In this document: positions 1,155-17,929 of the stretch, one piece after another
How the letters are laid out: every line of letters starts with the position of its first letter
How positions within the stretch are numbered: the stretch's first letter is position 1
Source: a virus
Virus record (IMG/VR): IMGVR_UViG_3300045988_109867
Coordinates: 1 to 44,492 of that record
DNA: 44,492 bases
Reading direction: 5' to 3' (one strand)
Translations under genes and position numbers: made by a program
The notes under the pieces: generated by a model
What the model was told of the DNA's origin: nothing
Databases searched by the model: none
What the model saw: the letters and a program-made list of their open reading frames with translations, nothing else

Positions 1155-1179
1155 AAATATATACAAGGAGGTGCTAAAA

Positions 1180-2055
1180 ATGAAAAAAAAGTGTGATGCG
1201 ATACAACATAACAATATAGTAAAATACCATAACGATTTAAATTTAGTTCAATTTAAAGATTTTACTACAAGGGAGCTGAATTTGTTTTACTCTATATGCG
1301 CAGTAATGAGAGATCAAGACGAGAATACGATAACATTTACGTTTGATTATCTTAAATCTTTGGCACAAATAGAAGTGCAGAATAAAACAGAATTTGTTGA
1401 GTTAACAAAAAGAATGTACAATAAACTAATTAACTTAAAATTTGAGTATGAAGATGAACACAAATTTGTTAAGTTTGTCTTATTTACTGCTTTTACTGTA
1501 GAAAAGAATGAGGAAATAGTGTCTGTAAAGGTTAATCCTGACTTTAAGTACATTTTAAATAACATAACTTCTAATTTTACTAGATTTGAGCTGCAAGAAT
1601 ATAATAGTCTTAAAAGCAAATACTCTAAGGAGGCATACAGATACATTAAACGTTTTAGAACTACTGGAATGTGGAAGGTAGACCTTGAAAGTTTTAAAAG
1701 AATAATGGGATTACCTTCTGAATATGAAACTAGATTCATTAATAGAGATGTTATATCTGTTATAGAATCCGAATTATCTTCTATAATTAAAGGTTTGAAA
1801 ATTGAGAAATATAGAAAAGGCAGAAGCATAATAGGATATATATTTACATTTAAGAAGGAAGCCATTCCAAAGTCTGTTAAAAAAAATGAGCCACCAGTAA
1901 TAGTAACAAGATCTGCAGAAGAGATAGTAAGAGAAAGGCACGAAAAACAAAAGAAGGCAAACGTCTACAAGACTAAATTCCATAATTTTGATATAGATAA
2001 CTCGGACCAATACTCTGCTGAAAACCTTGAAAAGATAATGAAAAACAGTAAGTAA
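1180..2055 (+). CDS. plasmid replication initiator, Rep_3/RepB-like
   Basis: Start moved to ATG 1180 (SD AAGGAGG 8 nt upstream). The N-terminus (IVKYHNDLNLVQFKDFTTRELNLFYSIC) matches the usual Rep_3 winged-helix opening. The gene is preceded by iterons. Confidence 0.8.
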   Translation: MKKKCDAIQHNNIVKYHNDLNLVQFKDFTTRELNLFYSICAVMRDQDENTITFTFDYLKSLAQIEVQNKTEFVELTKRMYNKLINLKFEYEDEHKFVKFVLFTAFTVEKNEEIVSVKVNPDFKYILNNITSNFTRFELQEYNSLKSKYSKEAYRYIKRFRTTGMWKVDLESFKRIMGLPSEYETRFINRDVISVIESELSSIIKGLKIEKYRKGRSIIGYIFTFKKEAIPKSVKKNEPPVIVTRSAEEIVRERHEKQKKANVYKTKFHNFDIDNSDQYSAENLEKIMKNSK

Positions 2056-2109
2056 GAAATTACTAAATTATGAAAAATGATAAATAGTAAAATATGAAAA
2101 GGAGAAATT

Positions 2110-2919
2110 ATGAAAATGAGAAATGCGACAAAAAAAGGAATAACAATTACTGTAGGTAACCAAAAAGGTGGAGTAAGCAAGACTACAACCACTTGTATGT
2201 TGGCTTATAGTTTGGCAAATAAGGGTTATAAAACTTTAGTAGTAGATTTGGATCCACAGGGAAATGCAACTAAGTTACTTTGGCTAACATCTAAAGAAGA
2301 TAAGCCAATAAAGAACACACTTATGAGTGGGCTGTTAGAAAGAAATCTACAAGATCTAAGATATAACGTTATGGAAAATCTAGACATGCTTCCTTCTCAC
2401 GTTGATTTGGAACTACTTCCTGAATGGTTATTTGAAAATGTAGCAAAAAAGGATAGAGATTTATACCTTGCAAATTTGCTGCAACCTTTAAAGTTAGAAT
2501 ATGATTTTATTTTAATAGACACTCCTCCAATGGCACTTACATTTACAAAAAATGCAGTATGCAGTTCTGACTTTGTTTTAATTGTTTTACAGACACAAGA
2601 AAGAAGTTTAACAGGAGCAGAATATTATATACAGCAGATTGCAAAGTTAAAGGAAGCACACAATCTAGAAGTAGATATAATTGGATTGGTTAGGGTTTTG
2701 GTAAAGAACCAAGGGACAATAGATAACTATATCTCTAATAAGGCTCTGGAGAGCTACGGGGAGTTTGTTTTCAATACGGTAATACCAAACATGGAAAGGC
2801 TAAAAAGATATGATGTAACAGGCATACAGAGAGACGATCACCACGACGATAGAGTTATGGATAAATATAATGATTTAGCTGATGAATTGATAGAAAGGTT
2901 AAAAAAGGAGGAGAGATAA
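2110..2919 (+). CDS. parA: ParA/Soj-type partition ATPase
   Basis: Deviant Walker A GNQKGGVSKTTT, then VDLDPQGN and ILIDTPP motifs. SD AAAGGAG. Confidence 0.9.
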   Translation: MKMRNATKKGITITVGNQKGGVSKTTTTCMLAYSLANKGYKTLVVDLDPQGNATKLLWLTSKEDKPIKNTLMSGLLERNLQDLRYNVMENLDMLPSHVDLELLPEWLFENVAKKDRDLYLANLLQPLKLEYDFILIDTPPMALTFTKNAVCSSDFVLIVLQTQERSLTGAEYYIQQIAKLKEAHNLEVDIIGLVRVLVKNQGTIDNYISNKALESYGEFVFNTVIPNMERLKRYDVTGIQRDDHHDDRVMDKYNDLADELIERLKKEER

Positions 2920-3200
2920 TGGGACTTCTTGAAAATACAAAACGAAAGAAAGTTGAATTTGAAAATACGTTGGCAGATAGTGTGATAAAGACCGATAAAA
3001 AAGAAAAGTTAAATAAAGGAATTAAGATGCCTGTAAGGGTAAAAAATAAACTAGATGTAATTAAAATGCATAAAGGAAAGAAATTTGATTATGAAGTTTT
3101 AGATATGCTTGCAGATTTTTATATAGAAAGTCTACAAGGGAGTGAAAAAGAGAAAATAGAATTTTTATTAAATTACCAAAATGAGAAAATAGATAAATAA
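2919..3200 (+). CDS. small partition partner (putative centromere-binding protein, functional ParB/ParG analogue)
   Basis: 93 aa, translationally coupled to parA (ATAATG). Assigned by position only; the family was not recognised. Confidence 0.5.
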   Translation: MGLLENTKRKKVEFENTLADSVIKTDKKEKLNKGIKMPVRVKNKLDVIKMHKGKKFDYEVLDMLADFYIESLQGSEKEKIEFLLNYQNEKIDK

Positions 3201-3538: not shown

Positions 3539-4207
3539 TTATTTATTTACTAACTCAAGGAACTCTTCTAATAATTCTACCCTCATTTTAAGCATTTGTT
3601 CCCAACTGTATTCAGGTTTTGCATATTCACTAATATCGTCTTCGTCAAAACCGTCTGTAAAGCCACATCTTATTTGCCACAACTGTTCTGCATCAAATTC
3701 TGGCTTTGCATATTCACTGATTTCATTTTTAAATCCACCTATAATACCTAATCTTATTTGATACATCTGACTACTATTTAATTCTGGCTTTGCATAAATT
3801 TTTACATCTATACCATCTTCTAAACCTAATCTTATTTGATACATCTGCATTTCATCATATATTGGATCTGCGTACCAGCTTATATCTAATCCTTCTCGTA
3901 AACCTAATCTTATTTGCAACATTTGATCTCCGTTATATTTTGTATTTGCATAAATATTTACATCAACCTTATTTAAAATCCCTGCCTTTATTTGTGTCAT
4001 TTGCCAATCATCAAATTCTGGCTTTGCATAAATACTTACATCTATGCCATCTTCTAAACCTTCTATAATTTGATACATTTGATAGTGATGGAATTCAGGC
4101 TTTGCGTATATTGATACATCTAATCCTTTTTCAAGCCCTTGTTCAATTTTTTCTAATTGAAGTTCATCAAATAAACCACTTTCTTTGTACTCTTCAAAAC
4201 TTTTCAT
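3539..4207 (-). CDS. acidic tandem-repeat protein (about 7 x 26 aa; motif G-L-E-x-G-[IL]-D-V-S-I-Y-A-K-P-E-F-x3-Q-M-x-Q-I-R), family not recognised
   Basis: The track ORF starts at a TTG inside the promoter. The real start is ATG 4207, with SD GGAGG 8 nt upstream. The repeats are read directly from the translation. Stop is TAA. Confidence 0.75.
   Translation of the reverse strand: MKSFEEYKESGLFDELQLEKIEQGLEKGLDVSIYAKPEFHHYQMYQIIEGLEDGIDVSIYAKPEFDDWQMTQIKAGILNKVDVNIYANTKYNGDQMLQIRLGLREGLDISWYADPIYDEMQMYQIRLGLEDGIDVKIYAKPELNSSQMYQIRLGIIGGFKNEISEYAKPEFDAEQLWQIRCGFTDGFDEDDISEYAKPEYSWEQMLKMRVELLEEFLELVNK
3592..4174 (-). repeat. about 78-bp tandem DNA repeats encoding the 26-aa units
   Basis: Recurring TCTGGCTTTGCATA(A/T)... 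and CTAATCTTATTTGATACATCTG blocks. Confidence 0.8.
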
Positions 4208-4248
4208 TTTGCTTACCTCCGTTTTTTTATTATTTATTTTATACTTTA

Positions 4249-4277
4249 ATTGTACCAACGTTACCGTTTGCTGTCAA
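4249..4277 (-). promoter_or_regulatory. sigma-A-type promoter P2 for the repeat-protein gene, with a shared operator in the spacer
   Basis: Minus strand reads TTGACA (4272-4277), 17 nt, TACAAT (4249-4254). The spacer GCAAACGGTAACGTTGG shares a 14-mer with promoter P1 at 8893-8921. Confidence 0.6.
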
Positions 4278-4295: not shown

Positions 4296-4472
4296 TTAAA
4301 CTCTTTTTTTATATTTGCTTTCCACCCATTCTTCATTAATTATCCAAGTTTTACCAATCTTTTTAATATGTTCTTTAGGAATATTATCTTTATTAATATG
4401 CCATCTTAAAGTATTTGCAGCAATATTGTATTCGTTTTCAATTTCTTTTAATGTTTTCCATTTTTCTATCAT
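4296..4472 (-). CDS. 58-aa helix-turn-helix protein (excisionase/MerR-like HTH_17 type); absent from the ORF track (<60 aa)
   Basis: Its ATG overlaps the TGA of the upstream gene (ATGA). Translation: MIEKWKTLKEIENEYNIAANTLRWHINKDNIPKEHIKKIGKTWIINEEWVESKYKKRV. The pattern tLkEi...i..nTl..hi....ip...kiGktw.i matches HTH_17. Stop is TAA at 4296-4298. Confidence 0.65.
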   Translation of the reverse strand: MIEKWKTLKEIENEYNIAANTLRWHINKDNIPKEHIKKIGKTWIINEEWVESKYKKRV

Positions 4473-5005
4473 TTTGTCTCCCTCACATCGTCTGGAATCC
4501 AGCTATTACTAAATTCTTCATCTCTAAATAGTGCTGCTAGTCCGCTTATTTGTTTTAACCTTAGTATTTCGTCAAAATCCATTCCTAAATTTTTACTTAT
4601 CCAAGCATCACTCATTCCACTTTCTGCTAATTCAGCAACTATATTTGTCATTAATTCAATTGAGTGGCTACCTCTAGCTCTGTTGTGTCTTATAGTAGAT
4701 GCCATCCTAGATTCTATTGGTTTATCTATTATAGATACTGGTAGGCACCCCCCCTCTCTATCGAATATATCTTTATGTTTTAACATAATGCTATATCTAT
4801 GGAACCCGTCTACAATTTCATACCTGTCTTTATCTTCTAGATAATAGCAAACTATAGGCATTGTATACCCATCTTCTTTTATGGATTGATATAATAACTT
4901 CATCTCAGGCGGTGCCACTGAATTTGGGTTATAAGCATTTGCTTGTATTTTTTCTAATGGAACTCGTTTTATATTATAAACTGGACTTACATATTCTTTT
5001 ATCAT
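4469..5005 (-). CDS. ParB-like nuclease domain protein, IbrB-like
   Basis: Motifs PLEKIQANAYNPN, IVDGFHRY and TIRHNRARGSH. SD AAGGAGG. Stop is TGA followed directly by TAG. Confidence 0.8.
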   Translation of the reverse strand: MIKEYVSPVYNIKRVPLEKIQANAYNPNSVAPPEMKLLYQSIKEDGYTMPIVCYYLEDKDRYEIVDGFHRYSIMLKHKDIFDREGGCLPVSIIDKPIESRMASTIRHNRARGSHSIELMTNIVAELAESGMSDAWISKNLGMDFDEILRLKQISGLAALFRDEEFSNSWIPDDVRETK

Positions 5006-5018
5006 TTTTGTATCCTCC

Positions 5019-6335
5019 TTATTTTCCTACTACTATATTTTTATACTTTTCTATAGTTTTTTTTCTCTGTTCTTTCTCTTTTTTCGTCTGTGAAAAACCC
5101 ATATATTTACACAAGTGATCATTTTTCATTATGCAAATACACATCCTTTTGTATGATGGGACTGCTTTAAAATCAGTAACATCCGCATCATCTGGATATT
5201 CTTTAAATCTAACAGGTTTTTTATCTGTTTTGTAATTTGTCTTTCCTCCTACTTCTATTTCCAAGCCACAATCTTTTAGTTCTCGTATTGTTGTTTCGTC
5301 AAGTACACCTCCTCGTTCCTTCCAAAACTTAATTGATGTTTCGAATTTTTCTATATAATTTTTTCTTGTTTGTTCTGGCAATGTATTTAGTAGAAATTTT
5401 AAATATGTCTGCCAAGTATGTCCTTTGGGTAATTTTATGTTTTTCCACCCCATTGCAGTTGTCCCTCCATATATTCCTGCGAAGTTAACACCATTAACTC
5501 TTCCAACAAGTTTTGCCCAAGTAGTAGGTTCAACAACCTTGTATACCTTTAGGGTGTCTATGGCACTATCATTAAAAGGACTTGCAACTCTCATTTCATT
5601 TAATTTTAATCCAGCGTAGTAATATAGATCATACAAAGTATTGTAATTATAACTTTTTTTTGCATTTGCTATCCATATGTCTTCAACTCTCCAATCATAT
5701 ATAATGTAGCATTTGCAAACATTTTTATCACTAGGTTCAATGTTTATCCAATGTTGTCTTTTATATTTATTAATATTTTTTTTACTTGAAATTGCTCTGT
5801 ATCTGTTTAATGATTCATCTGTTCTTAACCCTATTATTACCGCCGTCTTGCCTTTCTTTTTTGCTATTTCTTTAGAAAACAAATCTTGAAAATCATAATC
5901 CCATTGTCCTTTTTTAAATTCAAACCAAATGTTATCTTCATTTATAATAAATTCATTGTCTGGCATTTCTCTTGCCCAAATATCTCTTTCATCTTTATCC
6001 CAAGGGATCCAACTATCTTGACTCATATTAACTGCACACTGTGCAGAAATAGGCAAACATATCCAATATTTTTTTATTTCTTTAAAATTATTAAGAAATG
6101 TGTCAGTTACATAGTCTGTAGTAGCTTGATACTGCGCTTCATAATCCAAATGATACATTGATAGTTTGTTTAACATATTATGTTCTTTAGCATAATCATA
6201 TGCAAGATTAAGGCATACTCCACTATCCTTTCCTCCAGAAAATGCAACCATTATGTTGTCAAATTCTTCAAATAGAAATTTTAGCCTTTTTTGTGTTGCA
6301 TCATAAACATTAATATCACAATACTTTTTACCCAT
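5019..6335 (-). CDS. PAPS-reductase/ATP-pyrophosphatase family protein with a long C-terminal extension, IbrA-like (DUF3440-type)
   Basis: PP-loop VAFSGGKDSGV. 438 aa with a Cys-rich C-terminus (CICIMKNDHLCK). Overlaps the SNF2 gene by 8 nt. SD AAAGGAGG. Confidence 0.85.
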   Translation of the reverse strand: MGKKYCDINVYDATQKRLKFLFEEFDNIMVAFSGGKDSGVCLNLAYDYAKEHNMLNKLSMYHLDYEAQYQATTDYVTDTFLNNFKEIKKYWICLPISAQCAVNMSQDSWIPWDKDERDIWAREMPDNEFIINEDNIWFEFKKGQWDYDFQDLFSKEIAKKKGKTAVIIGLRTDESLNRYRAISSKKNINKYKRQHWINIEPSDKNVCKCYIIYDWRVEDIWIANAKKSYNYNTLYDLYYYAGLKLNEMRVASPFNDSAIDTLKVYKVVEPTTWAKLVGRVNGVNFAGIYGGTTAMGWKNIKLPKGHTWQTYLKFLLNTLPEQTRKNYIEKFETSIKFWKERGGVLDETTIRELKDCGLEIEVGGKTNYKTDKKPVRFKEYPDDADVTDFKAVPSYKRMCICIMKNDHLCKYMGFSQTKKEKEQRKKTIEKYKNIVVGK

Positions 6336-7713
6336 TTATAATACCTCCTTTTGCAATATCTATAATATTTTCTTTGTTTAGGCCGTCTAATGTTTTTCTA
6401 AACCACTTAACAAGATACATTTTTCGTCGTAAACAATCATGTATTTGATTTTCTAAAGTGTCTCTTGCTATTATATCTACATAAGTAGTTTCTTTCTCTT
6501 GCCCTATTCTGTGTATCCTATCTTCACTTTGTACTCTTGTAGCATAGTCCCAATCATTATTATAATAAATAATGGTATCACAAAACTGTAAATTTAAACT
6601 ATAACCTGCACAGTCCTTGTTAGCTACAAAGAATTTAGCCTCTTTATAAAACTTGTCTATAGCTTTATTCCTTTTTTTAATTGATATACTACCATCAAAT
6701 CTGCACACATTTTCTTCCCCATATAATTCGCTTAAAACTATAATTATATCATTGATTTCTTCTTTAAATTCGCAAAATATAATTATTTTTTTAGCATCAT
6801 ATTTTTTTATACAATATAACAATTCCTTTATTCTGGGGTTGTCTGAAGGGTTTTTATACCTTTTTTGTTTAAATGTCTGATCACCTTTAAAAGTGTATTC
6901 ATATCCACTTGTTATATTTAGTAAATGTGAAAACATTCTATATATAGTTTCAGGTATATCTTCATCAATTTTATCTATAAAATAATTTGCTACAGAAAGA
7001 TAGTGATCATAGTGTTCTCCCTCTAAATCAAAGTATTCAGAAAAATAATGTTTTTTAGGAAGTTTTATGACATCTTCTTTCTTAACTTGAAATGTATATG
7101 GTTCGATTCTTTCCATAAGAACATCTGTATTAATTAATTTTTCTATAATCCCTTTGCTTGTATCTATAGATAACACATGTTTGTCATAAAACGTATATTT
7201 TGACCTATATCCTAATATTCTCCAATCTAAGAAATACCATTGCCCAAATAGATCTAATTCATCTCTAGATATTGGAGAACCATTTAATATATATCTATAT
7301 TCACAATATTTCCCTAGTCTTATTATATTTTTTGTTCTAATAGCATTAAAATTTTTTATCTTTATGCTTTCATCAACAACTATTAAACATTTGTGTTTTT
7401 GTACGTAATCAAGCAAAAATGAGTTCAAGGCTACGCTTGATGAAAGACTTTCTATTCCTGCTATAACAAAATGATCTAGTCCTTTTTCTATATGTTTTTT
7501 AAATTCTTTATTTATATTATTTTTAGTTGAGCAAGGACATAACCATATTACCTTTTCTATCTTTTTTTTACAAAGTTTTTTATTAATAATTTCTAACATC
7601 GTCCTTGTTTTGCCTGTCCCCATTTCCATATACAATGCTCCAACTTTATATTTATTTAGCTTTTCAACGCACTCCTTTTGGTGTTTAAGCAATTTTGTTT
7701 TGAATTTTAACAT
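6328..7713 (-). CDS. SNF2-family helicase/translocase ATPase
   Basis: Motif I MGTGKT, motif II VVDESIKIKN, motif III LNGSPI, motif VI QSEDRIHRIGQ. The start overlaps the upstream stop (TAATG). Confidence 0.9.
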   Translation of the reverse strand: MLKFKTKLLKHQKECVEKLNKYKVGALYMEMGTGKTRTMLEIINKKLCKKKIEKVIWLCPCSTKNNINKEFKKHIEKGLDHFVIAGIESLSSSVALNSFLLDYVQKHKCLIVVDESIKIKNFNAIRTKNIIRLGKYCEYRYILNGSPISRDELDLFGQWYFLDWRILGYRSKYTFYDKHVLSIDTSKGIIEKLINTDVLMERIEPYTFQVKKEDVIKLPKKHYFSEYFDLEGEHYDHYLSVANYFIDKIDEDIPETIYRMFSHLLNITSGYEYTFKGDQTFKQKRYKNPSDNPRIKELLYCIKKYDAKKIIIFCEFKEEINDIIIVLSELYGEENVCRFDGSISIKKRNKAIDKFYKEAKFFVANKDCAGYSLNLQFCDTIIYYNNDWDYATRVQSEDRIHRIGQEKETTYVDIIARDTLENQIHDCLRRKMYLVKWFRKTLDGLNKENIIDIAKGGIING

Positions 7714-8979: not shown

Positions 8980-9783
8980 TTATTTTATTCCCTTGCAAAA
9001 TCTTGCGGCAACATATCCAAACTTACCCTTATGGTACTCTATTTTGTACCAAGTAGAGTCTGTTGTATGCACAACTTCATGCACATATATTTTACTTCCA
9101 TGTCTGTAGCTACTAACTATTCTAGAACTTGCACTTGGCTTTTCTCTAACGTTTAATACATCTCCTGGAGTGCTAGTTAATACATAATAACCTTTAAATG
9201 GTTTGGCTGGCTTAGATTGGCTTGTAGGAACTTGTGCATTACCTACCATTTTACAATCGGATGTTTTGCTAGTGTCTATAATCATTCTTCTGTTTTTCTT
9301 TATTTCTTCTAAGAACCAATCCCATTTAGAACTATTACCACCCCAACCACCTGGACAGTCTTTTCTTGTTGCATCCCAATGTCTACATACTCTAGCGTTA
9401 GGATATTGTCTTAAAAGTTCTTTAACTAATTCCACGGTATTAAATAACATTTGGTTGTTATAGCCTTTATTTACACACATTTCTATACTTATAGAATTGT
9501 AGTTTGTGCAGCCATTTAAAGCTACACCATAACCTTGATTGCCCCCTACTGCATAGGCTACTGTGGTATCCCCTACTATCTGTATTATTTTACTATGGTC
9601 TACAAAATAATGAGCCGACGCCCCTACACTATGGTTTTGAAAATAAAAGTAATGGTTTAATGCAGTTGCGGTTTCTTCTTCGTTTGCAGTCCAGTGTATA
9701 GCTATATATTGGACTGCACTTTTAGGTCTCCTTCCTCCAAAATTATTCCCATTAGTTATAGGTTTCCATATAAACTTAGTCAT
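8980..9783 (-). CDS. endolysin: N-acetylmuramoyl-L-alanine amidase (Amidase_2/PGRP) with a C-terminal SH3b domain
   Basis: Motifs IAIHWTAN, SAHYFVD, SISIEMC and CRHWDATRKDCPG. The C-terminal segment GDVLNVREKPS...WYKIEY...GYV is SH3b-like. Confidence 0.9.
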   Translation of the reverse strand: MTKFIWKPITNGNNFGGRRPKSAVQYIAIHWTANEEETATALNHYFYFQNHSVGASAHYFVDHSKIIQIVGDTTVAYAVGGNQGYGVALNGCTNYNSISIEMCVNKGYNNQMLFNTVELVKELLRQYPNARVCRHWDATRKDCPGGWGGNSSKWDWFLEEIKKNRRMIIDTSKTSDCKMVGNAQVPTSQSKPAKPFKGYYVLTSTPGDVLNVREKPSASSRIVSSYRHGSKIYVHEVVHTTDSTWYKIEYHKGKFGYVAARFCKGIK

Positions 9784-9784
9784 T

Positions 9785-10012
9785 TTATCTTACCACCTTT
9801 CTGTCCTTTGCTCCTCTAGTAGTTGGATCTACTACTACTCCTATTACAGCCATAACGGTAGTAGTTAAAAGATATGGATTCTGTATTGTATCTATAATTA
9901 ATTGCAATACCTTATCCCAGCTTGTTAGAGTACTAGCTTCCACTTGTAAAGCAGTTAAAATTACACCTACAAGTCCTATCCAAAAATACGGATTCTTTAT
10001 TCTGTCTTTCAT
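9785..10012 (-). CDS. holin (Phage_holin_1 / phiLC3-like)
   Basis: Start moved to ATG 10012 (SD GGAGA). Has two TM segments and the C-terminal VVDPTTRGAKD motif. Lies immediately upstream of the endolysin. Confidence 0.75.
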   Translation of the reverse strand: MKDRIKNPYFWIGLVGVILTALQVEASTLTSWDKVLQLIIDTIQNPYLLTTTVMAVIGVVVDPTTRGAKDRKVVR

Positions 10013-10038
10013 TAAACCATCTCCATTTCTAAAAAATT

Positions 10039-10380
10039 TTAATAATATATTTCTACTGGTAATTCCATGCATTCTTCGTACAACTTTTTTGCAACTCCAT
10101 TGCCACCTAGATTAGAATAAGATTTAAAAAGGTATTCTAAATCTCTAATTTCTTCTCTTTTTATTTTCCCTCTGTTTTTTATATCTGTAGCTTCTTTGCA
10201 AATGTTGTAATAAAGCATGGTTTTAATTCCCATTTTTATTGCTTCTTGTTCTTTTTTATTTTCTTGGTCTCTTTTTTTATTTTCTTTAACAATATTTTTT
10301 ACTGCTACGGTTAAACCAGTAAGGATAATCCCAAATACTGCTTGTATCCACCACTCTATAATAAAATCTTTAATTACCAT
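10039..10380 (-). CDS. membrane-anchored protein, first gene of the lysis cassette (function unknown)
   Basis: One N-terminal TM helix, then a charged region. Family not recognised. Confidence 0.6.
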   Translation of the reverse strand: MVIKDFIIEWWIQAVFGIILTGLTVAVKNIVKENKKRDQENKKEQEAIKMGIKTMLYYNICKEATDIKNRGKIKREEIRDLEYLFKSYSNLGGNGVAKKLYEECMELPVEIYY

Positions 10381-12534: not shown

Positions 12535-13095
12535 TTATAACTCTGTTCTAGTTCTCATATCTTCCCATGTGTAGCCTTTATTAGTAAAGTAACCCCATGT
12601 TTTATTCATATTTTCTAAATCTCCCCACGTTCTATACTTAAATACCATAGTGTAATTTAGGTGTGCTGGTAAAACTTCTCTTAATTTCTTTTTTATTTGT
12701 TCTATGTTTGGTGGTATCCCTATTTTACTTGTAAAGGTAACTGTTATTATATATTTATTAAACTGTTCCTCTATTGTGCATTCTGCATTCGCATTAGTTT
12801 CTACTAACCTTTTTACAGCTTCTTTTGTAACCTGTGTCTGTGTTTTCATGGACATAAGTATTTCTTTTTGTGCGTTTTCATTGCTCAGGCCGTCTATGTT
12901 GCAACCTACCATATTTGCCCATTCTTGCAAGCTATATGTAGCAGTCTTGGGATTTCTCTGTAAGTCCGCAATATTTAGGTCTTTAAAATATTGTTCTAAT
13001 ATTATATTTGCAACTCTGCATATTTCTAATAACCCTTCTTTTTTGTAAATGTTAGGAATAAATTGTTCCACCTTTTTATTTAGCAAAACTTCCAT
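12535..13095 (-). CDS. baseplate/tail protein, XkdU-like (DUF2313-type)
   Basis: Size and position after the Baseplate_J gene fit. N-terminus FIPNIYKKEGLL...LQEWANMVG is typical. Confidence 0.75.
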   Translation of the reverse strand: MEVLLNKKVEQFIPNIYKKEGLLEICRVANIILEQYFKDLNIADLQRNPKTATYSLQEWANMVGCNIDGLSNENAQKEILMSMKTQTQVTKEAVKRLVETNANAECTIEEQFNKYIITVTFTSKIGIPPNIEQIKKKLREVLPAHLNYTMVFKYRTWGDLENMNKTWGYFTNKGYTWEDMRTRTEL

Positions 13096-13098
13096 ACT

Positions 13099-14145
13099 TT
13101 ACTTCCTTTCCGTTAAGTTATTCTTAATGCTATAAACTTTATTTTTATCTAGTTTAATAGGGTCAGAACCATCTAATGTAACGTTTAAACTTCTTTTTAC
13201 ATTTAAATCTTGTTCTATTAATGCAGTTACTTTACTTTTGTATAAGTCCAACATTTCTAAATCTAATTGGGAATTAATTCTTTCTTCTATTAAATTTGTT
13301 ATTCTACTTTTAGTTTCTTCAAACTGCTTTATATCATACAACTCTATTTCTCCCGTAATAGTAACAGTAGTAATGCTTGTAGATTTTACTAAAGCATTTG
13401 CTCCTATAGGTTTCTGCTCATCTATATGCTTTTGGCACTCCTTTATAACCTCTTGGCTACAAGGTTGGTTATCTTTCCCGCTTATAATTATGTCTACAGT
13501 TCCTTCTCCTCTTGCAAGCTCTATTGCCACTGCTTTGTATACTCCATCTATTGTTAAAGCCCATTCTTCATAATTCTTTTTGTTCCCTGCATTACCTCTA
13601 GTTCTTTGTATGTATAAAAATCTTCTAAAGAATTCATCATCACTTTCTTTATTTGTTCCGCCTATACAAGGTTCTATAAGTGTTATACTGTCGTATTCGA
13701 AGCTTGTTGTAGAGAAAAGTTCTCCTGCATGGTGGTTATATTGGATTCCTACTTCTGTTGCTATGCACTTAGTTATAAGTTCTCCTTCTCCATTTGCAGT
13801 TCCCCCCTCTATCATGTATTCCCTGTTATCCTCATCATAGATATAAATTTCTGCCGCATTCCCGCCTATAACTTTATCTGGAGCTGTAATAATCTTAACT
13901 TGCCCTTGGCTGTATGTTCCTTGTAATCTGTATATTCCAAACCAGCTACATTGCTCATCTAGGACTTCCCCCTTTGCATCGGACAACAAAAAGGCTTTGT
14001 CTTGCTCTTCTCTTAGGAAGTATTCTCTTTCTAATGCACTTGCTATTGCGGAATAAATTGTATAAATAGGATCTCCTTCTATAACAACTCCCTGATGTGC
14101 GTTTAGTAGGTTTTTAAGAATTGTTTCCTTACTATTTACTAACAA
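13099..14145 (-). CDS. baseplate J-like protein (XkdT-like)
   Basis: 348 aa, in conserved order XkdR-S-T-U. Confidence 0.85.
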   Translation of the reverse strand: MLVNSKETILKNLLNAHQGVVIEGDPIYTIYSAIASALEREYFLREEQDKAFLLSDAKGEVLDEQCSWFGIYRLQGTYSQGQVKIITAPDKVIGGNAAEIYIYDEDNREYMIEGGTANGEGELITKCIATEVGIQYNHHAGELFSTTSFEYDSITLIEPCIGGTNKESDDEFFRRFLYIQRTRGNAGNKKNYEEWALTIDGVYKAVAIELARGEGTVDIIISGKDNQPCSQEVIKECQKHIDEQKPIGANALVKSTSITTVTITGEIELYDIKQFEETKSRITNLIEERINSQLDLEMLDLYKSKVTALIEQDLNVKRSLNVTLDGSDPIKLDKNKVYSIKNNLTERK

Positions 14146-14164
14146 AATTCCACCTCCTTTTTAA

Positions 14165-14524
14165 TTAAGCATTAAATTCTATTTCTGTTTTTGTGTATAT
14201 TGTTTCTACTTCTATTTTTATATTCACTTTATCTTGTTGCATAAAAAAACTAAGAAACTTTACATTTAGTATGTATTCATTTCTTAGTAGCCTGTTTTCT
14301 ATTTCTTTTTTAAGTTCTGCTTGTTTTTCTGCCACAGATATATTTCTAGTTAATATATCTCTTATTTTGTTCCCAAAGTTTTCCGTAAACAATGGACACT
14401 CCCCCGCTTCTATTTCTAATGCATATTTGCACCAAAGCATTATACTATCTTGGGAGTTTTCCCACGTGGAATTTGTTTTACTTTCTAAAGAACACGTATT
14501 ATATTGTTTTAATTCTGTGTTCAT
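14165..14524 (-). CDS. baseplate protein, XkdS-like
   Basis: 119 aa, assigned by position and size. Confidence 0.7.
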   Translation of the reverse strand: MNTELKQYNTCSLESKTNSTWENSQDSIMLWCKYALEIEAGECPLFTENFGNKIRDILTRNISVAEKQAELKKEIENRLLRNEYILNVKFLSFFMQQDKVNIKIEVETIYTKTEIEFNA

Positions 14525-14566
14525 CTCCCCGAATAAATCTATGTTTTTGCTAACTATTTAAACCAC

Positions 14567-14854
14567 CTACTTTATTCTTACAAATTTATCTATTAAAAAA
14601 GTTTCTATAGAATTATATACCAACAGCAAAACACTATCTCCAGTTTTTAAAGATGTATCTACTTTTTGTCCTCTTGTTTTTTCTCTTTCCGCTACTGCAT
14701 AGCTTATTCTTTTTATATCTATAACTCCATTAGAATCTCTTACTTGCAATGGATTTACTCCTGTTACAGTTCCTATAACTAAATAGGTAGACTCTGGGAT
14801 GTTGCCATACTTAGTATTTAAGGCTTCTTTTAATTCTTCAAATCCGTTTACCAT
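14567..14854 (-). CDS. baseplate spike-region protein, XkdR-like
   Basis: 95 aa. SD GGAGGG. Assigned by position. Confidence 0.7.
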   Translation of the reverse strand: MVNGFEELKEALNTKYGNIPESTYLVIGTVTGVNPLQVRDSNGVIDIKRISYAVAEREKTRGQKVDTSLKTGDSVLLLVYNSIETFLIDKFVRIK

Positions 14855-14870
14855 AATATAGTTTTCCCTC

Positions 14871-15449
14871 CTACCAATATCTTTTTATTACTGCATTACC
14901 GCCCCAATAAGGCTTTTGGAATCTTGCTCTTACTCCATTAGGACCACCATTATTCCAACATTTATTATTTCCCATTAATAAAAATGTGTGCCTACCACTA
15001 CCACTATAGGCAGAATTGCATACTACAACATCTCCAGCTTGTGCTTGGCTTGGATGTATTGTCTTCCCATGTGCAGCAAGTCCACTTGTTGTTGCTCCTC
15101 TTATTGCATTTCTTTCTGCAACTCCAGCTTCCCAAAGAACTCTACTTACAAAGCCACTGCAATCTGTATAATATCTAGAACCTGTACCTCTTCCACCCCA
15201 TTGGTATATGGTTTTAGGTCCTATTTCATTTGCGATTTGGCAAATCCTTTTTTGTGTGTTATTGGAATACTTCCCGTTTCCACCAGTTATTACACATGGA
15301 GAAGATACTGCACCACCTAATGTTAGGTTTTGTTTTGCTTGGGTATCGGAAACTCCTCCCGGACCCCAATATACTGTATCTAAATCTTTCCCACATACTG
15401 TAATTCCTGCTCTTCTAACTCCAGCTGCCCAGCCAGAACAACCAGACTG
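14871..15449 (-). CDS. NlpC/P60 endopeptidase domain (192 codons) with no start codon of its own; in frame after TGA 15450-15452 of the upstream gene
   Basis: Hand translation of the minus strand: QSGCSGWAAGVRRAG...YTDCSGFVSRVLWEAG...SGRHTFLLMG...KRYW*. It has a catalytic Cys (DCSGF) and His (GRHTF). There is no in-frame ATG, GTG or TTG until 28 codons before the stop. Stop is TAG at 14871-14873. Confidence 0.7.
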   Translation of the reverse strand, partial: QSGCSGWAAGVRRAGITVCGKDLDTVYWGPGGVSDTQAKQNLTLGGAVSSPCVITGGNGKYSNNTQKRICQIANEIGPKTIYQWGGRGTGSRYYTDCSGFVSRVLWEAGVAERNAIRGATTSGLAAHGKTIHPSQAQAGDVVVCNSAYSGSGRHTFLLMGNNKCWNNGGPNGVRARFQKPYWGGNAVIKRYW

Positions 15450-16826
15450 TCAGTAGACTCCTACAAATTGGCTTAACTTTTTAAATCCTCTACCGCCTAC
15501 ATACCTTCTAGATAGTAGACTTGCACCTTGTCTTATCCCTTCTTCTACACTGGAATTCCAATAACCTACAATCCCAAGAAATTGGTTTCTGCCATCTGTA
15601 GCCATTGCGGAAGTTCCACCGCCAGATTCTTGGTAGCAAATCCCCGCCCATAAAGCTGGATGTATTTTATAAGCATTACACCATTTTAAAACTAGATGCC
15701 CTTTGCCTTTTAATATACCTCTTAGAACTCTATTTATATTTTCGGCGGTAACTCCATGGTTAAAACTTGCTCCAGCACTTACTGTTCCACAATTTACATT
15801 TAAAGCATCCGTTCCTGTTTCTTCTACTTTGTTAGGGTCATCTTCTTGTCCTGCTCTTTCTTCATGTGCCTGGTTTAAAAAATTTAATTGCATTGTTGTA
15901 TCATGTAGCCCACCATAAAAATGGTGTGTTACTTTATCTATATAGAAATCTGCAATTGGTGCATTTAAAGATTCGGATAAGTGCACTTTAGCGCCGCATT
16001 GGCAGTCCCAATTACCTATACCTGTAATTTCTATTTCTCTTTCCATACTTTCTACTAGCTTAGGTTTATTTTCTTCATCCCCGCTATCTCTTGCTAATCT
16101 ATTGTAGTATTCTATTAAACCTTTATTATCTTTAATAGACATTAGGTTTCCGTTTTTATCATAAACTGCTATAGAGTTTACTATATTTTCGGATTTGTAG
16201 CTTTGTTTTAATCCAGACATATTTTTACAGTTATATTCTACTTTTAAAGCATACCCTCTATTTTGTACAGAAACTTTATTAAGTCTAGATTCTAGCTCAA
16301 ATTTTTGTTTTGTTTTATCTTCCGCAAGTGTTAAAAGTGTCTGTATTACCTTTAAGACATCTGTATCTCTAAAATATCTAGTAACCTTAACACCTTTAAG
16401 CTTTTCACTTACATATCCATATTCCAACCTATGTTCCTTTACTAAAGATTTAATAGTAGAATATACATCTACATCTATCATATTTCTAGAAATCTTACAT
16501 TTACTTAAATTAAATAAGGAGTCTTTAACAATAACATCAGAAACTCCACTTTCATTCGAACTTAAAGAAACAACGCTACCTCTGTATATTTCTTTAAAAT
16601 CTTCTTCTCCCATGTATTTTATATATACACAAAATGTACTACCTTGTCCTAATCTAAATGTATTATTTGCTTTAGACATTCTTTCTGTAAAAATTTGTGT
16701 AGTTAATGTTTTGGATGGAGAATCCGTAGAAGATGTTATTTTTATTCCACCTATTGCATTTGTAATGTTGTAATGGTCCTGTGTACCAGCATTTCTTACA
16801 TTTACTTTAACTTCGCACGTTCTCAT
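15450..16826 (-). CDS. XkdQ/late-control-D-like baseplate protein with a C-terminal glucosaminidase (GH73)-like domain; ends at a TGA in UGA-C context
   Basis: 458 aa. The C-terminus ICYQESGGGTSAMATDGRNQFLGIVG resembles the glucosaminidase ESGWG...N.FGI motif. The stop context is TAC TGA CAG. Confidence 0.8.
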   Translation of the reverse strand: MRTCEVKVNVRNAGTQDHYNITNAIGGIKITSSTDSPSKTLTTQIFTERMSKANNTFRLGQGSTFCVYIKYMGEEDFKEIYRGSVVSLSSNESGVSDVIVKDSLFNLSKCKISRNMIDVDVYSTIKSLVKEHRLEYGYVSEKLKGVKVTRYFRDTDVLKVIQTLLTLAEDKTKQKFELESRLNKVSVQNRGYALKVEYNCKNMSGLKQSYKSENIVNSIAVYDKNGNLMSIKDNKGLIEYYNRLARDSGDEENKPKLVESMEREIEITGIGNWDCQCGAKVHLSESLNAPIADFYIDKVTHHFYGGLHDTTMQLNFLNQAHEERAGQEDDPNKVEETGTDALNVNCGTVSAGASFNHGVTAENINRVLRGILKGKGHLVLKWCNAYKIHPALWAGICYQESGGGTSAMATDGRNQFLGIVGYWNSSVEEGIRQGASLLSRRYVGGRGFKKLSQFVGVY

Positions 16827-16843
16827 TTTTTATTTACCACCTC

Positions 16844-17929
16844 CTACGGAATTAATAATTTCCAACCAACATATATTACATTACTATTTTTTAACTTTGG
16901 ATAATTAGCTATATTTTCAGGATGGTTTTTTATTTTAGGGTATTCACTACCTTTTTTATAATATTTTTCGGCTATATCATATAAATTGTCATTTTTTTTG
17001 ACTGTATGATACCTTTTCTTACTATCTGTACCAGTTTCTTTTTTTCCAAAGTTCCTTATTACTCTAACGTGGTGTCCACTTACAAACCCCGTTACTTTGT
17101 CTATCTTTACTTTAAACCAACCGTTCTGTTCTTCTGCAAACTCTACAATAGTCCCTTTTGGTAAATCTTTTAAAGTTTTACTTAGTATATCTGGTTTTTC
17201 TTTAAGTTTGGTATTTTCTTGTACTTCCATTGTTTTTATATTAAAGTTTTTTATAAACTCTAAGCCAGCACTAGTACAGTATCCAGTAATATCTTTATAC
17301 TTAACTTTTATCCACCCGTCTTTTTCGGAAATGTATTCTACTCTAGTTCCTTTGTTAAGTTCTATTAGCTTCTTACTTAATACACTTGCTTCTTCTCTTA
17401 TTGGGATCCTATCTGTAACAACATTCATTTCCGTATCTTTGCCAGCACTGGTTAATACTTTATTGGAATTTACATTATTCTTTTCGGGGTTCCAACTTAA
17501 AAATTTAGGGTCATTCCTTTCTATTAGCTCAAAATCTATTATTAAATCAAACGTTTTGTCCTCCACCTTTGGATGCATTTTTTCTACATAACAGTCTATA
17601 CTTAAGCTTGGATTGGTTAATGTTAGTGTAAGTTTATGTTGTTTCTTTATATATTCATCTATTTTTTTGTAGAAAACCATTCCGTCAACTGCATCCGAAT
17701 AACTTCTGTCTGTTGTTGGAAATTCTATAGAAAATCCAAACCCTTCTAGGTCATACCCCGCATAGGAACTAAATTGTTTACCATTTACAGAATCATACGT
17801 TTTTATATTGTAGCTTTTCCCAAAATGGAAAGGTGGGACATATGGGAAGTATAATGTATCTACTACACTACCTGTCTTTATATCTGTAACAGTAAAATAC
17901 ATTTTTCTATCTGTTTCTACATTTGCCAT
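16844..17929 (-). CDS. LysM-domain tail protein (XkdP-like) with two SH3-like repeats
   Basis: C-terminal LysM YHTVKKNDNLYDIAEKYY...VGWKLLIP. Two GW(I/F)KVK...TG(Y/F) repeats. Confidence 0.8.
   Translation of the reverse strand: MANVETDRKMYFTVTDIKTGSVVDTLYFPYVPPFHFGKSYNIKTYDSVNGKQFSSYAGYDLEGFGFSIEFPTTDRSYSDAVDGMVFYKKIDEYIKKQHKLTLTLTNPSLSIDCYVEKMHPKVEDKTFDLIIDFELIERNDPKFLSWNPEKNNVNSNKVLTSAGKDTEMNVVTDRIPIREEASVLSKKLIELNKGTRVEYISEKDGWIKVKYKDITGYCTSAGLEFIKNFNIKTMEVQENTKLKEKPDILSKTLKDLPKGTIVEFAEEQNGWFKVKIDKVTGFVSGHHVRVIRNFGKKETGTDSKKRYHTVKKNDNLYDIAEKYYKKGSEYPKIKNHPENIANYPKLKNSNVIYVGWKLLIP

What the first reader, a model, noticed from the sequence alone, without database searches (positions are those of the whole stretch)
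14871..15452. In-frame TGA splits a baseplate muralytic gene; 192 start-less codons downstream encode an NlpC/P60 domain (readthrough, recoding or fresh pseudogene)
Seen: the XkdQ-like/GH73-like ORF ends ...FVGVY-TGA at 15450-15452. The same frame then runs for 192 codons with no ATG, GTG or TTG until near its end. That stretch encodes a complete NlpC/P60-type domain (YTDCSGFVSRVLWEAG ... SGRHTFLLMG) and stops at TAG 14871, 17 nt before the next gene's start. This explains the apparent 600-bp hole in the ORF track. Of the stop codons I checked, TGA ends only three genes here. The other two are followed by T and backed up by a nearby in-frame stop (TGA TAG; TGA TTA TGA), whereas this one is TGA-C. 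Established: UGA is the leakiest stop, and UGA-C is the weakest termination context reported in E. coli. Tail-associated lysins commonly combine a glycosidase with an NlpC/P60 or CHAP peptidase. Inference: this is either programmed readthrough giving a short (458 aa) and a long (651 aa) isoform, or a very recent nonsense mutation or sequencing error.
Basis: partly seen in the sequence, partly recalled or inferred. Interest (0 to 1): 0.65.

Follow-up and report, generated by a model that had tools for sequence, protein, structure and literature searches.

The report
Conserved translated UGA in phage tail lysin
A phage baseplate-hub gene that carries two cell-wall-cutting enzyme domains is interrupted by a UGA stop codon that has been kept for a very long time and is clearly translated through, so this is programmed recoding in a tailed DNA phage, not a broken gene.

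Summary
The minus-strand ORF 16826-15450 ends FVGVY-TGA. The same frame stays open for 192 codons with only one start codon (ATG, codon 618). It encodes a complete NlpC/P60 peptidase.

"Fresh mutation or sequencing error" is refuted:
- The same TGA is present in 12 population variants from different samples.
- It is also present in three further deep lineages (47-81% protein identity). A Cys (TGT) lineage is nested among them.
- The downstream frame is under strong purifying selection (32 synonymous vs 1 non-synonymous polymorphism; dN/dS 0.09-0.28).

The TGA is not at a domain boundary. It lies inside the glucosaminidase domain, right after the conserved Tyr.

One sister lineage carries three in-frame TGAs. 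All three are kept across 12% nucleotide divergence, and dN/dS is 0.03-0.12 behind each, so decoding there cannot be rare.

No other gene has an internal TGA. The complete 44.4-kb phage-plasmid has no tRNA.

Long hairpins with G-containing loops follow several of the UGAs and are absent from the Cys orthologue. No Rfam SECIS matches, and two of the extra UGAs sit at Gly/Ala columns.

Verdict: conserved programmed UGA redefinition. The decoding agent is unresolved: tRNA readthrough about 0.5, selenocysteine-type about 0.27.

The parts
14871..16826 (-). The whole recoded gene: 651 sense or recoded codons plus TAG. It encodes baseplate hub, glucosaminidase and NlpC/P60 endopeptidase.
   Evidence: Translation. 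Pfam. AF2 model and Foldseek match the diffocin hub 8v3w_H, the phiCD508 needle 9g8s_q, Mu gp44 and T4 gp27. Fused orthologues without a stop exist in L005/P0074 and in phiMMP01.
15450..15452 (-). In-frame TGA, codon 459, in the context TAC TGA CAG.
   Evidence: The same codon is TGA in L007, L017-L026, L008, L001/L009, L002/L003 and L012-L016. It is TGT (Cys) in L005.
15837..16826 (-). Central baseplate hub domain (aa 1-330, YQBQ/XkdQ, gp27/gp44-like).
   Evidence: Pfam PF24032, E 2.3e-15. Foldseek E 6e-26 to 1e-11 to hub proteins. High pLDDT.
15387..15761 (-). Glucosaminidase (GH73-like) domain, aa ~356-480. It is interrupted by the TGA right after the conserved Tyr458. The catalytic-motif Glu lies in QESGGG (15632-15615).
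   Evidence: phmmer hit to PDB 8yxk (Ecd09610 glucosaminidase domain), E 7.5e-16, aligned across the stop over query positions 9-147. Foldseek to 8yxk_A gives TM 0.83 and rmsd 2.3 Å. Model helix 464-478 lies after the stop. Distant homologues have Y-A-P or Y-C-P at the site.
15419..15446 (-). Candidate recoding hairpin, nt 7-34 after the U of UGA. It can form either an 11-bp stem with loop UGGCU, or 8 bp (UUCUGGCU/AGCUGGAG) with loop GGGC.
   Evidence: Folding. The stem is longer than in synonymous shuffles (p 0.02-0.06) in four TGA lineages and absent in the Cys lineage. Pair counts are 85% paired against 27-65% for slid controls, and L008 shows a C-G to U-A double change. There is only 1 segregating site in the 91 nt after the TGA. 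The support is modest.
14874..15266 (-). NlpC/P60 endopeptidase domain (aa ~521-651). The catalytic Cys556 is at 15161-15159 and His613 at 14990-14988.
   Evidence: Pfam PF00877, E 3e-9. Motifs DCSGF and GRHTF are conserved in all lineages. Population polymorphism is 32 synonymous to 1 non-synonymous.
14871..14873 (-). True terminator TAG of the long product.
   Evidence: The stop is at the same position in all variants.
16844..17929 (-). Upstream neighbour: XkdP-like SH3/LysM protein. It shows that this is the tail-tip module.
   Evidence: Pfam SH3_3 and LysM.
12535..14854 (-). Downstream neighbours: DUF2577-like protein, sheath initiator (gp25-like), baseplate J and Mu gp48-like protein.
   Evidence: Pfam.

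Best explanation
**What it is.** The gene is a single baseplate-hub / tail-lysin gene: hub, then glucosaminidase, then NlpC/P60 endopeptidase. Codon 459 was once a Cys codon and has been a UGA since before this phage clade diversified.

**How it most likely works.**
- Ribosomes of the unknown, Clostridium-like host terminate at the UGA part of the time. This gives a 458-aa hub that has no working enzyme.
- The rest of the time they decode the UGA with a host tRNA and go on to make the 651-aa hub-plus-lysin.
- I take the decoding to be SECIS-independent readthrough, by tRNA-Trp or another UGA-reading host tRNA. Local context (UAC UGA A/C) and a 3' hairpin may help it.
- The UGA then works as a built-in attenuator. 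It sets how many of the three hub subunits per virion carry the muralytic domains.

**Shown.** The UGA is conserved. The downstream frame is translated and under selection. The stop lies inside the glucosaminidase domain. The phage has no tRNA of its own. Only this gene has an internal TGA.

**Inferred.** Which tRNA reads the UGA, the efficiency of decoding, and the isoform-ratio function.
For: 1. **Conservation of the TGA.** It is present in window, L007, L017-L026, L008, L001/L009 and L002/L012. In the NJ tree the only sense lineage (TGT) is nested among the TGA lineages, so TGA is ancestral.
2. **Translation of the downstream frame.** dN/dS is 0.09-0.28 with pS 0.58-0.73 between lineages. 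Within the window's population there are 32 synonymous and 1 non-synonymous segregating sites and no frameshift.
3. **No other route to the downstream product.** There is no conserved start codon. The residues immediately after the stop (T/Q-S-G-C-x-x-W) are conserved. They belong to the same fold as the upstream part.
4. **The three-TGA lineage.** Two of its UGAs are at Gly/Ala columns. One of them has no structure beyond background and 16 of 51 nt changed. Selection is strong behind every UGA (dN/dS 0.10, 0.12, 0.03). This points to general UGA decoding, not site-specific decoding.
5. **Context.** The context of three lineages (UAC UGA ACU/ACA) is the same as at the classic leaky coat-protein stop in the Qbeta record NC_001890 (TAC TGA ACT).
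6. **No SECIS match** in Rfam even at E<=10.
7. **No code reassignment.** TGA occurs internally in no other gene (TGG 138 vs TGA 0 in the other genes), so this is not code 4 or 25. The complete genome has no tRNA.
Against: - Three successive UGAs under strong selection need a high per-codon efficiency. Ordinary near-cognate readthrough in bacteria is a few percent (own knowledge).
- Long hairpins with G-containing apical loops lie 17-36 nt after the UGAs at site 1 (main clade) and site 3 (sister clade). They are better than synonymous shuffles (p 0.002-0.06). They show a compensatory change. They are absent from the Cys orthologue and from most non-TGA equivalent sites. This is the geometry of a bacterial SECIS.
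- The only sense replacement seen is Cys, not Trp.
- Trp would land next to the active-site Tyr, and in the sister lineage on a near-invariant Gly.
- The truncated product carries a broken glucosaminidase domain. That is an odd design for a 'short isoform'.
Confidence: 0.5

Rival explanations
1. Selenocysteine, or SelB-type Cys, insertion. The UGA is read by the host's tRNA-Sec/SelB, directed by a SECIS hairpin just downstream. The product would then be a phage-encoded selenoprotein with a U-x-x-x-C motif next to the glucosaminidase active-site Tyr.
For: - There is a UGA/Cys orthologue pair: TGA in four lineages and TGT in L005/P0074/P0089.
- A second Cys four residues on is conserved only in this clade.
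- Hairpins follow the UGAs. At site 1 the stems are 9-11 bp with loops GGGU/GGGC/UGGCU starting at nt 18-23. At site 3 of the L002 clade there are 11 bp with loop GUAAUA (p 0.002-0.011) and a G-C to U-A compensatory change.
- The Cys orthologue lacks the hairpin.
- Synonymous variation is reduced right after the site-1 UGA in two lineages.
- The phage needs no tRNA of its own.
- The 11-nt spacer and GG(U) loop resemble E. coli fdhF (own knowledge).
Against: - No Rfam SECIS hit.
- There is no structure shared between the two deep clades. RNAalifold gives -4.9 kcal/mol.
- z-scores against dinucleotide shuffles are not significant.
- The extra UGAs of the sister clade sit at a near-invariant Gly and at an Ala column. 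The site-2 UGA has no hairpin beyond what non-TGA orthologues show.
- A peptidoglycan hydrolase has no obvious use for Sec.
- My literature searches turned up no phage selenoprotein.
- The host's Sec machinery is unknown.
Confidence: 0.27
2. The host, or the infected cell, reads UGA as an ordinary sense codon. This would be a dedicated tRNA(UCA) inserting Gly or Trp as in code 25 or code 4, or a loss or inhibition of RF2. The phage would use the codon sparingly as a gate on its lysin.
For: - Three UGAs are tolerated under strong selection.
- The three UGA columns align with C/A, a near-invariant Gly, and Ala.
- Only 3 of 55 long minus-strand ORFs end in TGA (2 of the 54 others). Both of the other TGA stops are followed by TAA/TAG within 7 codons.
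- Metagenome gene callers picked code 4 for short contigs that carry this gene.
Against: - A host with a reassigned UGA should leave many TGA codons in all phage genes. Here there are 0 in about 12,000 other codons, against 138 TGG and 676 GGN.
- The back-up-stop pattern is not significant. 42% of TAA/TAG genes also have a second stop within 6 codons.
- The relatives of this phage are Clostridium/Clostridioides phages and phage-plasmids, whose hosts use the standard code.
- No phage suppressor tRNA or release-factor gene was found.
Confidence: 0.13
3. There is no recoding. The TGA is a real end. The downstream 192 codons are either a decaying remnant (pseudogene, sequencing error) or a separate protein made by unusual initiation or reinitiation.
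For: Gene callers on long contigs annotate a 458-aa protein and nothing, or only fragments, downstream. In L009 a lineage-specific GTG seven codons after the stop lets callers predict a 185-aa protein.
Against: - Polymorphism is 32 synonymous to 1 non-synonymous, and dN/dS is 0.03-0.28.
- No frameshift or TAA/TAG occurs in any of more than 20 sequences spanning saturated synonymous divergence.
- No conserved start codon or ribosome-binding site exists.
- The codons directly after the stop are conserved. They complete the glucosaminidase fold begun upstream.
- The identical TGA appears in assemblies from many samples.
Confidence: 0.05

Closest known systems
Qbeta A1 (read-through) protein: leaky UGA at the end of the coat gene of Qubevirus
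   Same: An in-frame UGA is followed by a long start-less ORF, giving a major short and a minor long virion protein. The local context TAC TGA ACT in record NC_001890 equals that of L008 and nearly equals that of L001/L002. Decoding uses a host tRNA and no phage factor.
   Different: - Qbeta is an RNA phage of E. coli and the protein is a capsid protein.
- There the stop sits at a true domain end. Here it is inside a catalytic domain of a dsDNA myophage hub.
- One lineage here has three UGAs.
- Selected 3' hairpins accompany some of the UGAs here.
- The sense alternative seen here is Cys, not Trp.
Ecd09610 (CD630_09610) / phiMMP01 gp24-type hub-lysins of Clostridioides difficile prophages, and the diffocin hub
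   Same: The architecture is the same three parts: hub-like N-terminus, glucosaminidase and NlpC/P60 endopeptidase. Both catalytic domains are lytic in vitro (PMC9405191). The glucosaminidase domain of 8yxk matches at E 7.5e-16 and TM 0.83. The gene sits in the same place between XkdP-like and baseplate genes.
   Different: Those genes are uninterrupted ORFs with Ala at the position of the UGA. Protein identity to them is only about 20-32%.
Bacterial selenoprotein genes (UGA + SECIS in the coding region, e.g. fdhF, grdA/B)
   Same: There is a conserved in-frame UGA with a Cys-containing orthologue. A hairpin with a G-containing apical loop lies 17-36 nt downstream. A nearby Cys is conserved.
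   Different: The protein is not an oxidoreductase. There is no match to a curated SECIS model. The extra UGAs are at Gly/Ala columns. The host machinery is unknown. No phage example is known to me.
Genome-wide stop-codon recoding in gut phages (code 4 / code 15; cited in PMC11210395)
   Same: A stop codon is used as sense in a late, lytic-function gene of a phage whose host probably uses the standard code. A gating role for lytic functions has been proposed for those phages.
   Different: Those phages carry tens to hundreds of recoded stops, and often a suppressor tRNA. Here there are 1-3 codons in one gene and no tRNA.
Two forms of the tail-associated lysin Tal in lactococcal phages Tuc2009/TP901-1 (own knowledge)
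   Same: Virions carry a tail-tip protein with or without its C-terminal peptidoglycan hydrolase, which gives two infection specialisations.
   Different: There the short form arises by self-cleavage of the protein, not by translational recoding.

Membership tests
Programmed stop-codon readthrough (Qbeta A1 type) | An in-frame stop is followed by a long ORF with no start codon of its own. | tested here: met
   192 codons follow the stop. The only in-frame ATG/GTG/TTG is at codon 618.
Programmed stop-codon readthrough (Qbeta A1 type) | The stop codon and the downstream ORF are conserved in relatives, and the extension is under purifying selection. | tested here: met
   TGA is present in 4 of 5 deep lineages and in 12 of 12 population variants. 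dN/dS is 0.03-0.28, and polymorphism is 32 synonymous to 1 non-synonymous.
Programmed stop-codon readthrough (Qbeta A1 type) | A leaky nucleotide context is shared by the sites. | tested here: inconclusive
   UAC UGA A/C is found at site 1 in all lineages, except one variant with UAU. The extra UGAs of the L002 clade have UUG UGA G and AGG UGA G.
Programmed stop-codon readthrough (Qbeta A1 type) | Both the short and the long protein are made, with a standard amino acid at the stop. | not testable with these tools
   This needs proteomics or western blots.
Bacterial selenoprotein gene | An in-frame UGA aligned with Cys in orthologues. | tested here: met
   L005/P0074/P0089/P0090 have TGT/Cys. 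The distant homologues P0013 and P0016 have Cys and the others Ala.
Bacterial selenoprotein gene | A SECIS stem-loop lies immediately 3' of each UGA. | tested here: inconclusive
   Qualifying hairpins occur at 7 of 9 UGA site-lineages against a 15.5% background, and stems of 9 bp or more at 4 (p 0.01-0.06). None is found at site 1 of the L002 clade by the strict rule, and site 2 is no better than its non-TGA orthologues. There is no Rfam hit, and no structure is shared between the clades.
Bacterial selenoprotein gene | The host has selA, selB, selC and selD. | not testable with these tools
   The host is unknown. Both genome-contig scans found no relative.
Phage with reassigned stop codon (code 4/15/25) | The recoded stop is used as sense in many genes. 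| tested here: not met
   Internal TGA occurs only in this gene, in the window and in L001, L002, L005 and L009.
Phage with reassigned stop codon (code 4/15/25) | A phage-encoded suppressor tRNA or release-factor change. | tested here: not met
   ARAGORN and Rfam (gathering threshold and E<=1) find no tRNA in the complete genome.
XkdQ/Ecd09610-type baseplate hub with glucosaminidase + NlpC/P60 | A gp27/gp44-like hub fold at the N-terminus. | tested here: met
   Pfam YQBQ at 2.3e-15. Foldseek hits 8v3w_H at 6e-26, 9g8s_q, 1wru and 1k28_D.
XkdQ/Ecd09610-type baseplate hub with glucosaminidase + NlpC/P60 | A glucosaminidase domain with the catalytic Glu and the Y-small-residue motif, followed by NlpC/P60 with catalytic Cys and His. 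| tested here: met
   8yxk matches at E 7.5e-16 and TM 0.83. The motifs QESGGG, VY|x, DCSGF and GRHTF are present. Completing the glucosaminidase domain requires decoding of the UGA.
Pseudogene / assembly error | Relaxed constraint, frame disruptions, and a stop that is absent from relatives. | tested here: not met

The most novel reading that the evidence does not exclude
The UGA or UGAs are read as selenocysteine, or by a SelB-like SECIS-dependent system, directed by the hairpins that follow them. This would be the first phage-encoded selenoprotein and a virion cell-wall hydrolase. One lineage would carry three such codons. Assembly of lysin-armed virions would then depend on the host's selenium status and Sec machinery.
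Probability: 0.25. Interest if true: 0.92.

Novelty: new variant of a known kind. Interest (0 to 1): 0.76.

Why it matters
**For recoding biology.** Programmed stop-codon redefinition is textbook for RNA phage Qbeta and for eukaryotic viruses. I know of no conserved case, and my literature searches found none, in a structural gene of a tailed dsDNA phage. If this one is confirmed, three things follow:
1. A single UGA, maintained for a long evolutionary time, can be used to dose a muralytic tail-tip enzyme, or to make it depend on a host decoding activity.
2. There is a natural system in Clostridia-like hosts for studying efficient UGA decoding, with up to three UGAs in one ORF. It might involve selenocysteine.
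3. Routine annotation splits such genes or silently switches to code 4. Databases already hold both 458-aa and 'W'-containing 651-aa versions of the same gene.

**For lysin engineering.** The full-length enzyme can only be obtained by replacing the UGA. The natural Cys variant shows which residue works.

Tried and rejected
- **DNA search against phage records.** No match.
- **Genome-contig scans.** Both scans, with the C-terminal alignment and with TerL, found no relative. The host could not be named.
- **Rfam.** Nothing was found at the gathering threshold or at E<=1 over the whole genome. At E<=10 around the site there was only a spurious lncRNA hit, and no SECIS and no tRNA.
- **RNAalifold over the five TGA lineages.** The consensus was weak at -4.9 kcal/mol. 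The 80-nt folds were not better than dinucleotide shuffles, with z from -0.5 to -1.4.
- **Synonymous-site conservation across the five deep lineages.** No dip around the stop.
- **Code 4/25 reassignment.** Rejected because no other gene has an internal TGA.
- **Back-up-stop argument.** Not significant.
- **RF2-like +1 frameshift.** Not needed, because the frame is the same. The AGGAG upstream of the stop is not conserved.
- **Stop-hopping.** No matching landing codon (direct reading).
- **Internal initiation.** No conserved start codon.
- **phiCD119 / phiMMP04 split hub genes.** They are split at a different place and look like old annotation or sequence problems. Not pursued.
- **Literature searches** for phage selenoproteins or readthrough in tail genes. 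Nothing relevant was found.
Full report
**1. Observation**

On the minus strand an ORF runs from ATG 16826 to TGA 15452-15450 and encodes 458 aa ending ...KKLSQFVGVY. The same frame continues for 192 sense codons to TAG 14873-14871. The only in-frame ATG/GTG/TTG in that stretch is ATG at codon 618.

Pfam finds three things:
- YQBQ/XkdQ at aa 40-314.
- NlpC/P60 at aa 540-642 (E 3e-9).
- A sub-threshold Glucosaminidase match at aa 381-453. It stops at profile position 95 of 123, just five residues before the TGA.

TGA ends only 3 of 55 long minus-strand ORFs. The other two read TGA-TAG and TGA-TTA-TGA-...-TAA.

**2. What the gene is**

An AlphaFold model (built on an alignment of 16 homologues, mean pLDDT 75) shows three folded parts:
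- aa 1-330.
- aa ~356-480, helical.
- aa ~521-651.

Foldseek matches the first part to central baseplate hubs: diffocin 8v3w_H at E 6e-26, the phiCD508 needle 9g8s_q, Mu gp44 1wru and T4 gp27 1k28_D. It matches the middle part to 8yxk_A, the glucosaminidase domain of C. difficile Ecd09610 (TM 0.83, rmsd 2.3 Å).

By sequence, 8yxk aligns to the window protein across the stop codon (query positions 9-147, E 7.5e-16). Tyr-Ala-Pro lies where the window has Tyr-UGA-Gln.

Ecd09610 has the same three-part architecture, and both of its catalytic domains lyse C. difficile cells (PMC9405191). phiMMP01 gp24 is another uninterrupted 656-aa version. The neighbouring genes are the tape measure, an XkdP-like SH3/LysM protein, a DUF2577-like protein, the sheath initiator, baseplate J and a Mu gp48-like protein.

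So this is the tail-tip hub / tail-associated lysin of a myophage. The TGA does not lie between domains. It cuts the glucosaminidase domain directly after its conserved Tyr and before its last helix (model helix 464-478).

**3. The TGA is old, fixed and read through**

*Population level.* The 458-aa protein of the window type is recorded on dozens of contigs from many samples. I read twelve variants that differ by 1-3% in nucleotides. All have TGA at codon 459 and an intact frame to the same TAG.

In the 192 downstream codons there are 32 synonymous and 1 non-synonymous segregating sites. These codons were not constrained by the way the sequences were retrieved.

*Deep level.* The same codon is TGA in these lineages:

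| Lineage | Identity of the full-length product to the window |
|---|---|
| L008 | 81% |
| L001 / L009 | 78% |
| L002 / L003 | 47% |

Only the L005/P0074/P0089 lineage has a sense codon there: TAT TGT, Cys.

In an outgroup-rooted NJ tree the Cys lineage is sister to the window and nested inside the TGA lineages. TGA is therefore the ancestral state of the clade.

Pairwise dN/dS downstream of the stop is 0.09-0.28, while synonymous sites are near saturation at pS 0.58-0.73.

Residues directly after the stop ([Q/T]-S-G-C-x-x-W) are conserved. No start codon is conserved.

These results exclude a sequencing error, a fresh nonsense mutation, a decaying remnant and a separately initiated gene.

*A database artefact.* The 651-aa and 658-aa database proteins with 'W' at the site (P0004, P0078, P0084, P0087, P0095) are code-4 gene calls on short contigs. 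The two whose DNA I read (P0004 on L007, P0095 on L012/L013) have TGA there.

**4. A lineage with three UGAs**

In the L002 clade the downstream frame carries two more in-frame TGAs and no TAA or TAG. Two sublineages are available, L002/L003 and L012-L016. They differ at 241 of 1977 nt, and both keep all three TGAs.

dN/dS between the two sublineages, by segment:

| Segment | dN/dS |
|---|---|
| Upstream of the first TGA | 0.05 |
| After the first TGA | 0.10 |
| After the second TGA | 0.12 |
| After the third TGA | 0.03 |

The peptide behind three successive UGAs is therefore made in amounts that matter. That is hard to reconcile with a leak of a few percent per codon.

The second UGA aligns with the near-invariant Gly of the NlpC/P60 'G-x-P-Y-x-W-G-G' motif. 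The third aligns with Ala. The first aligns with Cys or Ala in the wider family.

**5. Not a change of genetic code, and no phage tRNA**

The window is a complete circular element: its first 55 nt recur at the end. It carries plasmid-type Rep and ParA genes. ARAGORN and Rfam find no tRNA.

Outside this gene there is no internal TGA in about 12,000 codons, against 138 TGG and 676 GGN. The same holds for L001, L002, L005 and L009. Decoding therefore depends on the host and is confined to this gene.

The nearest characterised relatives are phages and phage-plasmids of Clostridioides difficile, C. tetani, C. perfringens and C. botulinum, plus one Fusobacterium phage for TerL. The host itself could not be identified.

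**6. Cis elements**

*Context.* At site 1 the context is UAC UGA A/C in every lineage. TAC makes up 35% of Tyr codons genome-wide. One population variant has UAU, and the Cys lineage has TAT TGT. The leaky coat-protein stop in the Qbeta record NC_001890 reads TAC TGA ACT. That is identical to L008 and differs by one base from L001/L002.

*Structure: negative results.* Rfam gives no SECIS match. RNAalifold over all TGA lineages gives a weak consensus. The 80-nt folds are not better than dinucleotide shuffles.

*Structure: targeted tests.* I fixed one rule before looking at the sites. It asks for at least 5 consecutive pairs, a 4-8-nt loop starting at nt 17-33 after the U of UGA, and a G in the first or second loop position. 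The rule is met at 15.5% of random in-frame positions. The results:

| Site and lineage | Stem found | p vs synonymous shuffles |
|---|---|---|
| Site 1, window | 11 bp | 0.021 |
| Site 1, L008 | 9 bp | 0.043 |
| Site 1, L001 | 10 bp | 0.05 |
| Site 1, L009 | 10 bp | 0.057 |
| Site 1, Cys lineage L005 | none | - |
| Site 1, L002 and L012 | none by this rule | - |
| Site 2, L002 | 5 bp | 0.30 |
| Site 2, L012 | 6 bp | 0.047 |
| Site 3, L002 | 11 bp | 0.011 |
| Site 3, L012 | 5 bp | 0.14 |

- *Site 1, main clade.* The Cys lineage has none.
- *Site 1, L002 clade.* There is only an interrupted hairpin.
- *Site 2.* The hairpins are no better than those at the orthologous non-TGA positions.
- *Site 3.* The hairpin (loop GUAAUA) is also much more stable than synonymous shuffles by folding energy, p 0.002 in L002 and 0.0055 in L012. 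It keeps its pairing through a G-C to U-A double change made by two synonymous substitutions.
- *Main-clade helix.* It is 85% paired against 27-65% for slid controls and has two pairs with changes on both sides (one is the L008 C-G to U-A change). Shuffles reach the observed value in about 45 of 500 trials.

*Nucleotide variation after the site-1 UGA.* In the L002 clade there are 2 differences in 51 nt where about 6 are expected. In the window's population there is 1 segregating site in the 91 nt after the UGA, against 12 in the 103 nt before it.

Taken together, there is moderate evidence for selected RNA hairpins after some, but not all, of the UGAs.

**7. Mechanism**

*Firmly supported.* This is a single gene whose full-length product needs in-frame decoding of UGA by the host's translation apparatus. 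The arrangement is maintained by selection.

*My preferred reading (about 0.5).* SECIS-independent readthrough by a host tRNA, helped by context and perhaps by the hairpin. It would yield mostly a hub without a working enzyme and a fraction of lysin-armed hub. The UGA would act as an attenuator of lysin dosage per trimeric hub. This would reach the outcome of the two Tal forms of lactococcal phages (own knowledge) by the means used for Qbeta A1.

In favour of this reading:
- The Qbeta-like context.
- UGAs at Gly and Ala columns.
- A UGA without a special structure.
- The absence of a SECIS match.

Against it:
- The efficiency implied by three UGAs.
- The selected hairpins.
- The sense replacement being Cys, not Trp.
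- The stop being placed inside a catalytic domain.

*Selenocysteine-type insertion (about 0.27).* It explains the UGA/Cys pair, the clade-specific second Cys (U-x-x-x-C), the hairpins, their loss in the Cys lineage, and the lack of a phage tRNA. It explains the extra UGAs poorly, and it has no precedent in phages or in peptidoglycan hydrolases.

*A host that reads UGA as an ordinary sense codon (about 0.13).* It fits the three-UGA lineage. It does not fit the complete absence of TGA from all other genes.

*'No recoding' (about 0.05).* It is contradicted by the selection data.

**8. Novelty**

Stop-codon readthrough, Sec insertion and genome-wide stop recoding in phages are all known. I could not find a conserved recoding of one to three codons in a single tail-tip lysin gene of a tailed dsDNA phage, decoded by the host. 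I rate it a new variant of a known kind, with a substantial chance of something rarer, a phage selenoprotein. Proteomics of the junction peptide would settle it.

Noticed in passing
window 1-55 and 44438-44492; 1171-2055(+), 2110-2919(+): The first 55 nt are repeated at the end, so the window is a complete circular element of about 44.4 kb. It carries a RepB-like initiator and a ParA, so it is a phage-plasmid. TerL is 45-50% identical to that of C. botulinum and C. perfringens phage-plasmids, and 57% identical to that of Fusobacterium phage phiHugo.
   Followed up: partly
window 3539-4258 (-): A 239-aa protein made almost entirely of about seven tandem ~30-aa repeats (D-V/I-S-I/W-Y-A-K-P-E-F ... 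Q-M-x-Q-I-R-x-G-L). Its function is unknown.
   Followed up: no
window 4469-7713 (-): A cluster of a ParB-like nuclease-domain protein (one of the two other TGA-terminated genes, TGA-TAG), a 438-aa PAPS-reductase-like protein and an SNF2-type helicase. It may be a DNA-modification or anti-defence module.
   Followed up: no
L014 4376-5998 vs L002 7831-9453: In one sublineage of the three-UGA clade the baseplate J and Mu-gp48-like genes are fused in frame. The TAG of L002 is TAT in L014, so two baseplate genes are joined by loss of a stop.
   Followed up: partly
L002 6977-7030: The three-UGA lineage has a clear intrinsic-terminator-like hairpin plus T-run directly after the hub-lysin gene, and a ~90-nt spacer before the next gene. 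The window lineage has only 16 nt there.
   Followed up: no
Database proteins P0004, P0078, P0083, P0084, P0087, P0095 (loci L007, L012, L013): Gene callers on short metagenome contigs switched to translation table 4 for this gene. They deposited full-length proteins with Trp at each TGA, while long contigs carry the 458/476-aa truncation. Public protein sets therefore hold two incompatible versions of the same gene.
   Followed up: yes
L027 (phiCD119) 1723-3076; phiMMP04 (H12/H13): The homologous hub genes of two C. difficile phages are annotated as two CDSs (tail protein + C40 peptidase), split at a different place from the one studied here. In phiCD119 the neighbouring genes are fragmented too, so this looks like a problem of sequence or annotation quality.
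   Followed up: partly
window 8980-10380 (-): A separate lysis cassette is present: an Amidase_2 + SH3_3 endolysin (8980-9783) with two small putative membrane proteins (possible holins, not checked) upstream. The recoded hub-lysin is therefore a virion-associated enzyme, not the lysis endolysin.
   Followed up: partly
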